From a candidate division WOR-3 bacterium (GTDB taxonomy: Bacteria; Hydrothermota; Tepidihabitantia; Tepidihabitantales; Tepidihabitantaceae), in the NCBI GenBank assembly GCA_039801225.1, contig JBDRUH010000035.1, positions 1-15,979 on the forward strand: a stretch of 15,979 nucleotides of DNA. Direction: 5' to 3'. Within the stretch, counting starts at the first letter, position 1. The number at the start of each line of letters is the position of its first letter. A program made the position numbers. Positions 12,001 to 15,979 of the stretch are shown here, piece by piece.

Positions 12001-15000
12001 GCAAATAAGAGGGTGCCAGGGACAAGGAGCAGGGTGAGAACTACTGAAGAGACGCGCTTTTTAAAAAACATTCTTCCTCCTTTTTAAAGCTTACCTCTTT
12101 CTGCGCCACCCCTTTTTAGTTCGCAGCGCTTGGCTTCAAGTTCTAAACCAAGAACCCAAAACCAAAAACTAACAACTCTTTCCACAGGAGTGGCGCTTAA
12201 CATTGATAACAATATACTCAACAATTCCCATTTGTCAACAAGTTGCACATTAAATAAAAAGGGGCGACCAGATCTGGTCGCCCCTTTCTCTTACGGACCT
12301 GGCGGACTGATGGTGAAAACCTGTTCACGAATCGCCTCCAGAACCGGCTGCGCCAGACCACGCGCCACCCACTTCTGCATCAGCACATTCACCTCCCGCA
12401 TCAGCGAATCGCCGGAAATACCCTGTCGCTGCAAACGCCACAACTCCCGGGCAAAGTTCAGATAGAACGGATAGTTAATCGTCGCAACACTTTCACCATC
12501 AAGCACCTGCTTCACCTGTGTCTCCAGCGCCACAATCTCAGGAAAGGTAGCCTGCATATTCGCCACCATCGTTGAGCGCAACTCCTCAAGAATCGCCTTG
12601 ATTCGTTCTGGAGAGGTCTTAGCGCTCCACCTGGCAATCCGCTTCAAGAGATTACTCATTTTAAACACCTCCTTTCTGCGGCAGATTTTCTCTAGCGCCG
12701 TCCTTGCCGCATTAAGGACGGTCGTTTTTCCTCTCCGACCATTAAGACCCAAAAACGGGAAAATATTAACGGGTGAACTTGAATGGGCTATCAGCCCTTG
12801 CTGTAGATTTTACTCAGGATGCCAAATAACCGATTAGAGCGGTTGGTCTCTCCTCTTTCTCTTAGACAACGCCTCTTTGTAGGGCAAGGCTTCAGCCTTG
12901 CCTCCCTTTTTCTCTATGGAACCTGCCCGAATCGGGTAGAGGATGGACGCAAACCTAAAGGTTTGCCCTACAGCCCATTAAAGGCAAAATTCAGTTTATC
13001 TTGTTATAAGTATCGCCTTTCCGCCAATGTTAGCCCCTTGCTGTTTCAGCCGTAGGATATAAATCCCTGCCGGAAGCGAATTGATGTTCACCGTCCATTT
13101 CTTCTCTTTGTCCGCGGAAGAGAGTTCCAGTCTCTTGACCAGTCTACCTGCCCGGTCATAAAGTTCGCATAAAACCGGTTGACAATTTCTGGTCTGGGCA
13201 TAGGCGGTAATAGTTAAGGTGTTCCGACAGGGATTAGGTTTCACTTCAACCCGCCCGAGCACCGCTGCCATTTGGTAGCCACCAATTCCAATAGGTGGAG
13301 CAGAGGCGAAGATTCCAGCGCCGTTCGTCCCGGCAAATACCCTTGGATTCGCACCACCCCGTACCGCTATTGACAGGATATTGACACTGGTCAGCCCCTC
13401 GTTCACCTGCTGCCAGGTAATACCGGCATCGGTCGTAAGATATACCCCAGAACTGGTGCCGGCATAGATGACACTTTCATTTTCCGGTAGAACACCCAGC
13501 GCCCGCACATTAGTGAAAGAACCGATAAGAGTCCAGGTAGTTCCACCATCATTTGATTGGAAAACACCCTGACTGGTGCCGGCATACCAGCATTCACTCC
13601 CGGCAATAAGAGCGTAAACCGCGCCAATAAGTCCATCCCCGGTATGAACCCAGGTGGCGCCGAGGTCGGTGCTCTTAAGAAGCAGTTTGTAGGAATAAAG
13701 AGAATCACCGCCTATTATGATGTGGTTGGGGTCAGAAGGGTCAATTAACAACGCATTGGCGCGGGCGATAGAGTCAGGCAGAGTGTCAAGGAACCAGGTG
13801 GCACCACCATCGGTCGTCCAAGAGGTTTGAATCCGATAGGCACCATTAATATAACCATAGCCAGCGGTAAATATTATGTCCGGATTGGTTGGTACTACTC
13901 CTAATGCGGCACCATCAGTGAGATAACTTGCTTGTTGTATCCAGACGGACCCGCCGTCTGTGCTCTTAAAGAGCTCGGCGTTTCCTCAACCTGACCCCTC
14001 CAACGCCCAGACCGTTGCCGGGTCAAACGGATGCACCGCCATTGCGCAGATATTACCGCAGGAAAGGAACTCCGGACACCTTTCCCAGGTGTTACCATTA
14101 TCAAACGAGCGATAGACCGCATTGTCCTGACATTCGGTGTAAATCGTATTGTCATCCCCGGCCAGAGCGAGCACCTTTATTTTGTTAAAAGAGAAATTGC
14201 CCGATATCTCCTGCCAGGTATTACCAAAATCGGTGGAACGAAAGATGCCGGCTTTTGTTCCACAGTAAACCGTGCCACTTGTCATTGGGTGAGGCAATAA
14301 CGCATACAATAAACCACCATATATTCCGGTGCCTATCTCAACCCAGGTTGCACCACTGTCGGTGCTTCTATAGAGCCTGCTACTGGTGGTGGCATAAAGT
14401 ATCGCCGCAGTCACTTGACCGGTGCAGCGTCGTTGCGCCAATCCCGCGATACCCACCGACATATATCACATTGGTGTCAATTGGGTCAACAGCCAACGAA
14501 TAGCCATAGGAAGGGGCGGCGGTGTCACAGAAAAAAACCTGCCAGTTAACCCCGGCGTTAATTGAACGGGCAAGCACCGTCCGATAAACACTGCCGGCGT
14601 AATTATAACCGACCGCATAGAGGACCTCGGGGTTAAGCGGATTAAATCTCAGCGCCCGAAAATAGTTGCTACTCGGCAGAGAATAGACGCTCCAGGATGC
14701 GCCACCATTAGTGGTTTTATAAAGCGCGGCGCCGGTAAGGGCATAAACCACCTCCGGGTCACTCGGGTGAACCAATATATTCTGAGGATAGGTTGGAATC
14801 TGTCCTGAGGTAAAAAACCAACTTTCTCCGCCATTGGTTGACTTTACCAAATTGGCCGGACTGGCATAAGGAGCAAGGTAGATTGTTGGCGGGTCAGCAG
14901 TGGCGATGCCTCCAGAATAGATTGGACCGCCATTTGGTCCAATTGCTGTCCAGGCACTAAAACCGACAGCCACAACCACTGGCATTAACACAATAAAGGC

Positions 15001-15979
15001 GCGCATCATTTTACTCCTTTGAGAAAAATTAACCGATAATTCGCCACCAGTCAATACCAGTAAATAGAACCCTTTTCCCGCCTCCTCACAAACCGCGGCT
15101 CCTATCTTACCGCTCTCTTTTATAAGAAACTCCTCCCACCTTCATTCTCTTCTTCCTATCCGAGTTCCACCGCTAATCCCTAAGGTCAAACATCTCAGGA
15201 CGAATATATAAAGCCAGATGGCGCGCCACGGCGCGCCATCTGATGGTTCTAATTCCAGCGTCAACTAATGGAGGACGACCATCTTCTCTTTCACAAAGAA
15301 ATCACCGGCACGGAAATAGCAGAAATAGACACCCTCAGCCGTGGGCAATTTACCTTTACCAACATCCCAGTTGAAATTATAAAAGCCCGGTGAACGCTTG
15401 CCATTCATCAGCACCTTGACAACTTCGCCGGCACTGTTTAAGACCTTAAGGTCAACATTTGTTTCTTGTGGCAGATAAAACCTGATATTGACACGGGATT
15501 TAACCGGATTGGGCTGGATTACGGCAAAAGGTTGGGATGGATGAGAGTTGAAGGTTTTTTCGGTTATTGCGCCTGGCTGCTTGATTTCAAAGACATCACT
15601 TTCGTCATAGGCTTCAGGATTGTCAACATTACTGATCTTCACCTTGCAGTTGGTGCTCGGGGTATTGGGAATGTCCCATCGGTAATAACCGTTGTTATTC
15701 GTATTTGTAATAATTGAACTCCAAGTCGCGCCGCCGTCGGTTGAATACTCAATCTTTGCATCGCTGAAGACACCAGTCCAGTTCCAGGTGATATAATACT
15801 CCCTGCCCACTATCCAGATATCATTTGCCCTTGGAGAAGTTACGGTTATTTCCTGCGCTGCGATGGCAAAGACATTACTTTCGCCATAGGCTTCAGGATT
15901 GTCAACATTACTGATTTTCACCTTGCAGTTGGTGCTCGGCGTATTGGGAATCGTCCATTCATACTGACCATCATTACCG

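What a model noticed while it worked through the whole genome (the two positions that open the first line are those of the whole stretch)
12996..15009. BNR/sortilin-like T9SS-tail protein with a conserved selenocysteine codon
A second, unrelated secreted propeller family (Sortilin-Vps10/BNR repeats with a Por_Secre_tail domain; about 745 aa in relatives) carries one conserved in-frame TGA (C35:13988-13986, motif ALEGSG-U-GNAELFKSTDGG). The TGA is best read as Sec. Databases hold the family as 400-aa and 300-aa halves.
Evidence so far: - 44 of 66 genomes of the order match. Of 81 rows, 77 carry one TGA, 1 carries two and 3 carry none. - The protein sequence continues in frame directly after the TGA in G000, G001, G023 and G015. 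- The 39 nt after the TGA are 97% identical in a G015 paralog of 35% protein identity. - Pfam finds Sortilin-Vps10, BNR and Por_Secre_tail. The best NCBIfam family scores 130.7 bits, below its cut-off of 175, and is not a selenoprotein model. - Database homologs are about 406-aa fragments that end at the TGA. - The TGA is confirmed in contigs of two public runs laid without a difference at the site. - The Sec machinery is present.
(Added by a program. Inside this text positions count along the whole contig: contig position 1 is position 1 of the stretch shown here. "Call 12" and the like, gene names such as g00115 and contig names such as C1 are that model's own, and its searches are not shown. 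The text may have been shortened before it was handed on; [...] marks where a part breaks off. The agent that wrote the report below was given it as the finding of a first reader that could run no searches.)

Follow-up and report, generated by a model that had tools for sequence, protein, structure and literature searches.

The report
New secreted propeller selenoprotein family
A secreted two-propeller protein of uncultured hot-spring WOR-3 bacteria carries one conserved in-frame TGA that is most likely read as selenocysteine, which would make it a previously unlisted selenoprotein family, although the copy in this window is itself broken by a deletion.

Summary
The TGA at 13988-13986 (minus strand) is real. 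The frame continues for 330 codons to a T9SS sorting domain.

The same single TGA, in the motif EGSG-U-GNAELF-STDGG, occurs in 92 of 95 family rows from 59 genomes of one WOR-3 class. There are up to 6 copies per genome.

Two hairpins follow the TGA:
- The core of the first is invariant in 65 of 65 sequences.
- The second has compensatory changes in 4 of 7 pairs, fits the published bacterial SECIS consensus, and is encoded by an Asp-box. None of 269 other Asp-boxes in the same genes forms this hairpin.

selA, selB, selD and tRNA-Sec(TCA) are all present.

A Cys 24 residues upstream is invariant. By strand topology it should lie next to the Sec.

The predicted fold is a GH74-like pair of 7-bladed propellers.

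- Two distant full-length homologs do have Cys at the Sec site.
- One public contig does bridge the break near 14400, so that deletion may be a real allele. Another contig carries the intact form.

No propeller family is among the 119 selenoprotein families of a 2026 review. Sec insertion has not been shown by experiment. Function is inferred.

The parts
14383..15009 (-). N-terminal piece of the gene, in frame A. It holds the signal peptide (MMRAFIVLMPVVVAVGFSAW...) and propeller blades 1 to about 4. In this frame it ends at the TAG at 14382-14380.
   Evidence: It is 67% identical to residues 1-203 of the intact G023 ortholog.
14402..14410 (-). Junction of a deletion of about 64 codons with a frame change. 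One and a half blades are missing.
   Evidence: X1 record 1 matches up to 14409 and then runs on unlike the window. X1 record 8 starts at 14402. X3 record 22 (14350-14462) bridges the junction as it stands in the window.
13989..14409 (-). Middle piece, in frame B: blades about 6 to 9a, up to the Sec codon.
   Evidence: The translation is collinear with the orthologs.
14058..14060 (-). TGC codon of the conserved Cys (LSCGN), 24 residues before the Sec. It is the presumed partner of the Sec.
   Evidence: Read. The column is invariant in 23 of 23 full-length members (C384). No Cys stands in this column in 0 of 20 TGA-less homologs.
13986..13988 (-). In-frame TGA, read as selenocysteine.
13960..13976 (-). 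Hairpin 1 after the TGA (GAGCUC-UUUAA-GAGCAC). It encodes E-L-F-K-S.
   Evidence: The core pairs GCUC/GAGC are invariant in 65 of 65 sequences. Leu is always CTC and Ser always AGC here, against 33% and 25% in the rest of the genes.
13943..13959 (-). Hairpin 2 (AGACGG-CGGGU-CCGUCU), the likely SelB-binding SECIS. Its loop lies at 13949-13953. It is encoded by the Asp-box T-D-G-G-S-V-W.
   Evidence: 4 of 7 pairs have changes on both sides, and 0 of 500 shuffles reach the observed score. Internal control. It fits the consensus quoted.
12999..13985 (-). C-terminal part after the Sec codon: blades 9b to 14 and the sorting domain. The stop codon is at 12996-12998.
13017..13238 (-). T9SS type A C-terminal sorting domain.
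   Evidence: Pfam PF18962 scores 38.1 bits against a cut-off of 27 on P0001 residues 409-482. TIGR04183 scores 29.2 bits against a cut-off of 23.

Best explanation
WHAT IT IS
The gene belongs to a family of secreted proteins of about 740 aa, found in one class of the candidate phylum WOR-3. Each protein has a signal peptide, two seven-bladed BNR/Asp-box beta-propellers arranged as in GH74 enzymes, and a T9SS type A sorting domain.

HOW THE TGA IS READ (inferred)
One UGA lies in the loop between the second and third strands of blade 9. It is decoded as selenocysteine by SelB and tRNA-Sec. Decoding is directed by a structure directly downstream. That structure has an invariant first hairpin and a covarying second hairpin. 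The second hairpin has a CGGGU or GGN loop 32 nt after the UGA, and it is written into the codons of the next Asp-box.

WHERE THE SEC SITS (inferred)
The Sec probably lies next to an invariant Cys 24 residues upstream, on the propeller face opposite the Asp-boxes. Together they would form a selenenylsulfide redox centre or a binding centre on a cell-surface protein.

SHOWN HERE: the conserved TGA, the open frame after it, the RNA constraint, the Sec machinery, the predicted fold and the sorting signals.
INFERRED: Sec insertion itself, Cys-Sec proximity and a redox or binding role.

THE WINDOW'S OWN COPY
As assembled, the G000 copy carries a deletion of about 64 codons with a frameshift near 14400, so it could not make the full protein. 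An intact allele occurs in the same habitat.
For: CONSERVED TGA
- The motif around the single TGA is shared by all 32 frames from the first 30 loci, by 38 paralog frames, and by 5 members from other orders.
- In a search of 272 genomes of the phylum, 92 of 95 listed rows carry exactly one TGA, from 59 genomes, all of one class.
- 23 full-length genes hold 23 TGA against 425 TGG. Two of them end in TGA.

RNA STRUCTURE
- Two-hairpin model: 4 pairs and 11 cells have changes on both sides, and 0 of 500 shuffles reach the covariation score.
- Residue pairs 3/7 of the post-Sec Asp-box are D-V, N-V, S-A and T-S, which are mutually complementary codons.
- The post-Sec Asp-box forms 4 to 6 of 6 pairs in 23 of 23 genes. 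None of 269 other Asp-boxes in the same genes forms more than 4.
- The consensus in PMC13188914, section 5, asks for a loop of 3-9 nt, a stem of 4-16 bp, a G in the first two loop positions, and 16-37 nt of spacing. Hairpin 2 meets all four.
- The genome's own Sec-containing selD has a GCGC-AGUUG-GCGC hairpin 22 nt after its TGA.

SEC MACHINERY
- Present in G000.
- All 42 genomes of the order with the element have a selA match. The two genomes of genus g15, which lack selA, also lack the element.

CYS
- C384 is invariant alongside U408.
- P0269 has Cys at both positions and P0234 has Cys at the Sec position, in collinear BLASTP alignments.

FOLD
- The AlphaFold2 model has pLDDT 89.1. Strands 387-392 and 400-404 form a hairpin whose open end carries C384 and U408.
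- The top 20 or more Foldseek hits are GH74 enzymes (E 1e-25, TM about 0.6).

THE BREAK IN G000.
Against: - There is no experimental evidence of selenium in the protein, and no RNA run was listed.
- Rfam's models gave no SECIS match.
- For the window's own 51 nt, the minimum-energy fold is a single long stem topped by hairpin 1 (-19.2 kcal/mol, z -2.5), not the two-hairpin form. That long stem is paired in 92% of cells but shows no covariation. The three most distant members keep only hairpin 1. It is therefore open which hairpin binds SelB.
- Cys-forms are rare and distant, at about 30% identity. Only 2 of 9 distant full-length homologs have Cys at the site. P0279, the closest relative of P0269, does not. 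P0145 keeps the loop but has Leu there. None of 20 TGA-less homologs of the order has Cys there.
- The link with selA is weak evidence, because 20 genomes with selA lack the family.
- I had no model coordinates, so Cys-Sec proximity is inferred from strand topology only.
- The covariation counts come from related sequences.
Confidence: 0.78

Rival explanations
1. The TGA is recoded, but not as Sec. The conserved downstream hairpins would stimulate read-through by a near-cognate tRNA (Trp, Cys or Arg), or act as a translational pause signal. The full-length protein would then carry an ordinary residue.
For: - No experiment shows selenium in the protein.
- Close Cys-forms are lacking.
- P0145 keeps the whole loop with Leu at the site, so the loop can exist without Sec.
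- The hairpin-2 loop lies near the far end of the allowed spacing.
Against: - The full Sec machinery is present in every genome that has the element.
- Hairpin 2 fits the SECIS consensus.
- The invariant partner Cys co-occurs with the TGA.
- Two distant homologs have Cys at exactly that column.
- A leaky stop kept at one codon in about 90 diverged copies, with no replacement by a sense codon, is hard to explain otherwise.
Confidence: 0.08
2. The TGA is a true stop. The 407-aa product is the protein, and the downstream 330 codons are a separate or decaying gene.
For: Gene callers and databases annotate it this way, as 407-aa entries.
Against: - The stop would cut blade 9 between its second and third strands.
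- The signal peptide lies only on the upstream half and the T9SS sorting domain only on the downstream half.
- The downstream frame stays open and conserved at 40-60% identity in the same frame in every copy.
- No start codon is conserved after the TGA.
Confidence: 0.04
3. The break near 14400 in the window is an assembly collapse, and the organism's real gene is intact.
For: - X1 record 1 leaves the window at 14409. By my hand translation, its loose end continues in frame as ..IYQIAPAGGDAAILYATTSS, which aligns with the missing part of the G023 ortholog (VYQIAVDQINPAVIYATTST).
- X1 record 8 stops at 14402 with 259 further letters of its own.
- The two sides share only a short GCGGCGA-like stretch.
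Against: - X3 record 22 (113 nt, depth 4.9) spans 14350-14462 with one differing letter, so molecules with this junction exist in at least one run. That run may, however, be the sample the assembly came from.
- No assembler joins contigs on 7-8 shared bases.
Confidence: 0.35

Closest known systems
Bacterial selenoproteins with an in-ORF bSECIS, as catalogued in PMC13188914 Table 1 (119 families and subfamilies)
   Same: - One in-frame UGA, with a stem-loop directly downstream inside the coding region.
- A G-containing apical loop within 16-37 nt of the UGA.
- SelA, SelB, SelD and tRNA-Sec in the genome.
- A nearby conserved Cys.
- Gene callers truncate the protein at the UGA.
   Different: - No BNR, sortilin, Ycf48-like or propeller family is in that table. 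I read section 7, parts 1 and 2.
- Most listed families have thioredoxin-like folds or CxxU/UxxC motifs. Here the partner Cys is 24 residues away, and the protein is a T9SS cargo with a 14-blade double propeller.
- The SECIS is a two-hairpin element built into an Asp-box.
GH74 xyloglucanases (e.g. 6p2o, 2cn3, 5fkq)
   Same: - A tandem of two seven-bladed Asp-box propellers of about 700 residues.
- Best Foldseek matches: E 1e-25, TM 0.59-0.62 over 760-810 columns.
- Profile hits at E 3e-28.
   Different: - Sequence identity is only 16-18%.
- HMM alignments are out of register between repeats.
- The catalytic Asp pair was not tested.
- GH74 enzymes have no Sec and no T9SS tail.
- VIA-align ranks generic single 7-bladed propellers equally high (Z about 31 over about 290 residues).
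Ycf48/HCF136-like and 'photosystem II stability/assembly factor-like' BNR propeller proteins, and Sortilin-Vps10 domains
   Same: - Pfam PSII_BNR and Sortilin-Vps10 hits lie above their cut-offs.
- Thousands of database relatives carry these names.
   Different: - Those proteins are single 7-bladed (Ycf48) or 10-bladed (sortilin) propellers.
- None has the EGSG-U-G loop or the upstream Cys.
Outer-membrane or extracellular selenoproteins already listed: the FCYXU-type TonB-dependent receptor, the GSU2204 beta-barrel protein, and selenobacteriocin with its SGUG motif (PMC13188914 Table 1)
   Same: - Sec sits in a protein that leaves the cytoplasm.
- Selenobacteriocin shares the local SGUG letters.
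   Different: - The folds and families are unrelated.
- No NCBIfam selenoprotein model hits this protein.

Membership tests
Bacterial selenoprotein (Sec-UGA with bSECIS) | An in-frame UGA conserved at the same codon among homologs, with the conserved ORF continuing after it | tested here: met
   92 of 95 rows carry one TGA. 23 of 23 full-length genes align through it.
Bacterial selenoprotein (Sec-UGA with bSECIS) | A downstream stem-loop that fits the bSECIS consensus: loop 3-9 nt, stem 4-16 bp, G in the first two loop positions, 16-37 nt from the UGA, MFE <= -7.5 kcal/mol (PMC13188914 section 5) | tested here: met
   Hairpin 2 has a 5-7 bp stem, a CGGGU or GGN loop, and 32 nt of spacing. The two-hairpin fold reaches -16.5 kcal/mol in L015. 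Caveat: the MFE fold of the window's own sequence is a different long stem.
Bacterial selenoprotein (Sec-UGA with bSECIS) | selA, selB, selC and selD in the same genome | tested here: met
Bacterial selenoprotein (Sec-UGA with bSECIS) | Homologs with Cys at the Sec position | tested here: inconclusive
   2 of 9 distant full-length homologs have Cys there: P0269, which also has the partner Cys, and P0234. 0 of 20 TGA-less homologs of the order have it. None appears among the 120 listed hits at above 40% identity. P0279 lacks it.
Bacterial selenoprotein (Sec-UGA with bSECIS) | Selenium shown in the protein | not testable with these tools
   This needs 75Se labelling or mass spectrometry.
T9SS type A cargo | A C-terminal sorting domain above the curated cut-offs, plus an N-terminal signal peptide | tested here: met
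   PF18962 scores 38.1 and 43.4 bits against a cut-off of 27. TIGR04183 scores 29.2 and 34.6 bits against a cut-off of 23. Hydrophobic N-termini followed by [AF]xW are seen in all 23 genes (by eye). T9SS machinery genes in G000 were not searched.
GH74 glycoside hydrolase | Two seven-bladed propellers forming a cleft | tested here: met
   Foldseek. I counted 13 Asp-boxes plus one blade without a box in P0002 (by eye).
GH74 glycoside hydrolase | The conserved catalytic Asp pair | not tested
   No residue-level structural alignment or model coordinates were available. The HMM alignments are out of register.
NCBIfam NF045728 F510_1955 family glycosylhydrolase | A score above the curated cut-off of 175 bits | tested here: inconclusive
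   The window's product scores 131 bits, below the cut-off. The intact G040 ortholog scores 217 bits, but only as the sum of 6 stretches of a 246-position model.

The most novel reading that the evidence does not exclude
This is the first beta-propeller selenoprotein family, and the first T9SS-secreted one. It would be a cell-surface protein on a GH74-like scaffold with a Cys-Sec centre, multiplied to up to six or more copies per genome in thermophilic WOR-3 bacteria. Its SECIS evolved by rewriting the codons of an Asp-box, so that the amino acids at Asp-box positions 3 and 7 are dictated by RNA pairing. It would mean that part of the selenoproteome of this phylum works outside the cell.
Probability: 0.7. 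Interest if true: 0.72.

Novelty: new variant of a known kind. Interest (0 to 1): 0.66.

Why it matters
- Almost all catalogued bacterial selenoproteins are small cytoplasmic or periplasmic redox proteins. A large, secreted double propeller with Sec would widen the range of places and scaffolds where selenium chemistry is used.
- It would add a family that gene callers systematically cut in two. Hundreds of database entries are 407-aa stumps.
- It gives a clean natural example of an RNA signal and a protein motif competing for the same codons.
- It points to a selenium requirement in an uncultured hot-spring phylum. That bears on attempts to cultivate these organisms.

Tried and rejected
- Rfam scan of the window at E <= 10: no SECIS family. 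The only hits are weak sRNA or terminator-like ones.
- A general reassignment of TGA is rejected. There is one TGA against 425 TGG in 23 genes, and TGA is the terminal stop in 2 of them.
- The long-stem SECIS model shows no covariation: 1 pair, reached by 375 of 500 shuffles. It is kept only as an alternative.
- The profile search against PDB sequences aligns GH74 out of register, so it cannot place the Sec relative to the catalytic residues.
- VIA-align returned only generic 7-bladed propellers.
- The search for related loci on genome contigs gave 2 loci and no useful organism name.
- The listing of cluster members gave no names for the Cys-forms. P0269 is not encoded in any of the 272 WOR-3 genomes searched; the best identity is 34%.
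- Supplement of BSepDB (PMC13326102): only the cut Table S1 is held, so its family list (Table S2) could not be seen. My word search of the part held found nothing, which says little.
- Literature searches found no prior report: 'selenoprotein' + 'WOR-3' gave 0 papers; 'selenocysteine' + 'type IX secretion' gave 1 paper by listing, unrelated; 'selenoprotein' + 'beta-propeller' + 'SECIS' + 'bacteria' gave 7 papers by listing, all eukaryotic or unrelated.
- No RNA holder was listed among the public runs.
- Neighbouring genes give no functional clue. They are guaA, leuS, an aromatic amino acid lyase, an ABC transporter, and two other T9SS-tail proteins.
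Full report
THE SEQUENCE IN THE WINDOW

On the minus strand there are three collinear pieces of one gene.
- 15009-14383 is in one frame. It holds a signal peptide and the first blades, and ends at a TAG.
- 14409-13989 is in a second frame.
- After the TGA at 13988-13986, the same second frame runs on for 330 codons to the stop at 12998-12996.

Pfam finds Sortilin-Vps10, BNR, PSII_BNR and the T9SS sorting domain Por_Secre_tail. 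NCBIfam's best model, NF045728, scores 131 bits against a cut-off of 175.

HOW WIDE THE PATTERN IS

A protein search of the 66 genomes of the order returned dozens of open frames of about 745 aa with exactly one TGA. They range down to about 30% identity and include several paralogs per genome.

In all 32 frames taken from the first 30 loci, the TGA sits in the same motif, W-x-[LF]-E-[GA]-S-G-U-G-x-A-E-L-F-x-S-T-x-G-G. The same holds for 38 more distant paralogs and for 5 members from other orders of the class.

With a Cys-form homolog as query, a search of 272 genomes of the phylum listed 95 rows. Of these, 92 carry one TGA and 3 carry none. The TGA rows come from 59 genomes, all of the same class. 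No other class gave a match at E <= 1e-60. At most 4 candidates per genome were scored in that search, so the counts are lower bounds.

A covariance model of the 60 nt around the TGA hits 42 of 66 genomes of the order, in 81 rows, with 1 to 6 hits per genome. It hits 19 of 151 genomes sampled across the phylum, and G000 only once.

Database entries for the family are 407-408-aa stumps that end at the TGA. One is named as from a 'candidate division WOR-3 bacterium'. The public runs that hold the stretch are hot-spring metagenomes.

TGA IS NOT A GENERAL SENSE CODON

The 23 full-length genes hold one TGA each against 425 TGG. Their terminal stops are TAG 18, TAA 3 and TGA 2.

THE RNA DOWNSTREAM OF THE TGA

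In 65 distinct sequences, the 45 nt after the TGA are far more conserved than the proteins.

Two adjacent hairpins can form.
- Hairpin 1 is GAGCUC-loop-GAGC(AC). Its four core pairs are invariant in 65 of 65 sequences. Its Leu is always CTC and its Ser always AGC, although these codons make up 33% and 25% of Leu and Ser codons elsewhere in the same genes.
- Hairpin 2 is (A)GACGG-CGGGU-CCGUC(U). It has changes on both sides in 4 of 7 pairs, in 11 cells. None of 500 column shuffles reaches the observed covariation score, and slid registers pair in only 29-41% of cells against 83%. The sequences are related, so these figures overstate independence.

A stronger control is internal. Hairpin 2 is encoded by the Asp-box that follows the Sec. 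Its positions 3 and 7 are D-V, N-V, S-A or T-S, which are codon pairs complementary to each other. This box forms 4 to 6 of the 6 tested pairs in 23 of 23 genes. None of the 269 other Asp-boxes in the same genes forms more than 4. Position 7 of those other boxes is Thr in 185, and Val in only 4.

Hairpin 2 meets the bacterial SECIS consensus quoted in the 2026 review PMC13188914, section 5, which I read in full. [quoted passage not shown]

The genome's own Sec-containing selD shows a comparable small GC hairpin with an AGUUG loop 22 nt after its TGA.

Two results run against a simple picture.
- The minimum-energy fold of the window's own 51 nt is a single long stem topped by hairpin 1 (-19.2 kcal/mol, z -2.5). 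That stem has no covariation support.
- The three most divergent members (L065, L101, L102) keep only hairpin 1. In them it has a 6-bp stem and G-containing loops.

Which hairpin SelB binds is therefore open.

THE SEC MACHINERY

G000 has the following:
- tRNA-Sec at 74.6 bits, which ARAGORN calls tRNA-SeC with anticodon TCA;
- the SelB wing domain;
- selA at 570.6 bits;
- two selD genes, one of which has an in-frame TGA in CAG-U-ASK next to selB.

In the order, 62 of 66 genomes have a selA match. All 42 genomes with the element are among them. The two genomes of genus g15, each 92% complete, lack both selA and the element. This fits Sec but is weak evidence, because 20 genomes with selA lack the family.

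CYS

In the 23 aligned full-length members, C384 (in L-S-C-G-N) is invariant together with U408. Among the 38 paralog rows, read by eye:
- 34 keep x-C-G at that place;
- 2 have a Cys two residues earlier;
- 2 lack it but keep the second Cys of C-G-N-I-C.

In 20 TGA-less homologs from the order, neither column holds Cys (0 of 20 for each), and the Sec loop is mostly shortened. One of them, L047, has a Cys four columns downstream in a gapped loop. No close Cys-form appears among the 120 listed hits of the word-seeded search.

The exhaustive search of 1.84 billion representatives returned several collinear full-length homologs at about 30% identity. I aligned 9 of them.
- P0269 has Cys at both the 384 and the 408 columns. 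BLASTP is collinear over 644 residues with no gap in that region.
- P0234 has Cys at 408 only.
- P0145 keeps E-G-S-G-x-G-A-A-E-L-F but has Leu at the site and no partner Cys.
- P0247 has Ser at the site.
- The remaining five have other residues or gaps at the site.

P0279, the closest relative of P0269, lacks the Cys at the site. So Cys-forms exist but are rare and distant.

STRUCTURE

AlphaFold2 on the 23-sequence alignment gave mean pLDDT 89.1 and pTM 0.78.

Foldseek's best matches are all GH74 xyloglucanases. They span both propellers (E about 1e-25, TM 0.59-0.62, 16-18% identity). PorZ and other double propellers follow. VIA-align ranks generic single seven-bladed propellers at Z about 31.

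I counted 13 Asp-boxes plus one blade without a box, which makes two seven-bladed propellers.

DSSP places strands at 387-392 and 400-404, the Sec loop at 405-412, and the next strand at 413-416. The Asp-box follows. The TGA therefore falls inside blade 9, so a product that stopped there would end in mid-blade.

C384 precedes the first strand of a beta-hairpin by three residues, and U408 follows the second strand by four. They therefore sit at the same open end of the hairpin. From general propeller topology, that end is on the face opposite the Asp-boxes. This is an inference. I had no coordinates to measure a distance.

THE BREAK IN THE WINDOW'S COPY

Compared with the intact G023 ortholog, the N-terminal piece covers residues 1-203 and the next piece resumes near residue 268. 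About 64 residues are missing and the frame shifts.

Laid contigs show both forms.
- X1 record 1 follows the window from 13700 to 14409 and then continues differently. Its first 30 letters, translated by hand in the gene's frame, read ..IYQIAPAGGDAAILYATTSS. That aligns with the missing part of the ortholog, so this is an intact allele.
- X3 record 22 (113 nt, depth 4.9) spans 14350-14462 as in the window, so this is the deletion allele.

The junction shares only a 7-8-nt stretch. I therefore rate a real deletion variant as somewhat more likely than an assembly collapse. X3 may, however, be the sample the assembly came from.

The same call shows the 41-63-nt post-TGA stretch at 84-106 summed depth against about 9 on its flanks. 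Several contigs diverge on both sides of it. This fits many paralogs and organisms sharing the element.

WHAT IS KNOWN

The 2026 review lists 119 prokaryotic selenoprotein families and subfamilies. I read its Table 1 in full (section 7, parts 1 and 2). It contains no BNR, sortilin, Ycf48 or propeller family.

No NCBIfam selenoprotein model hits the protein. Three literature searches found no prior report. The family list of BSepDB could not be seen, because the supplement is held cut.

VERDICT

The Sec reading is well supported by comparative evidence but is not proven.

The finding is a new selenoprotein family with an unusual scaffold, an unusual location and an unusual SECIS. The mechanism of recoding is the known one.

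The function is inferred only. The proposal is a Cys-Sec redox or binding centre on a surface-exposed GH74-like propeller.

Noticed in passing
G000:C5:25243-26151 (minus strand; L062): This selD has an in-frame TGA (..TCAG-U-ASK..) directly beside selB. A GCGC-AGUUG-GCGC hairpin lies 22 nt after the TGA. A second selD without a TGA lies on C39.
   Followed up: partly
window 10842-12071 (-) and 15265-15978 (-): The Sec gene is flanked by two other secreted proteins. One is a 409-aa Ycf48-like BNR propeller. The other is a protein with FlgD_ig and Por_Secre_tail domains. Together they make a cluster of three T9SS-type cargo genes on one strand.
   Followed up: partly
G229:C29:5123-11851; G058:C208; G027:C225; G035:C126; G250:C29: Family members stand in tandem arrays of two or three copies, each with its own TGA.
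   Followed up: no
P0145 cluster (4 members, JGI/ENA/Logan): This full-length homolog keeps the EGSG-x-GAAELFKSTDGG loop but has Leu at the Sec position and no partner Cys. Leu TTA is one base from TGA. Its DNA could not be fetched.
   Followed up: partly
window 13936-13991, in runs X1-X4: The summed contig depth of the post-TGA element is about 10 times that of its flanks. Many contigs diverge on both sides of it. The element is shared by many genes and organisms in these hot-spring samples.
   Followed up: partly
window 12240-12292 (+) and 15211-15264 (-): Two weak matches to the same small hairpin-type Rfam model (STnc320; 24.8 and 27.2 bits against a cut-off of 50) lie just downstream of convergent or T9SS-cargo genes. 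They are probably intrinsic terminators.
   Followed up: no
window 12291-12752 (-): A small 153-aa ORF between the propeller genes hits DUF4145 (26.2 bits against a cut-off of 23.1). It also has a sub-threshold match to a Sulfolobus virus coat protein C-terminal domain.
   Followed up: no
G237:C37:9464-11419 and G238:C136:1471-3426: These two family rows carry 2 TAA besides the one TGA. They may be decaying copies.
   Followed up: no
23 full-length family genes: Terminal stops are strongly skewed to TAG (18 of 23). TGA ends only 2.
   Followed up: no
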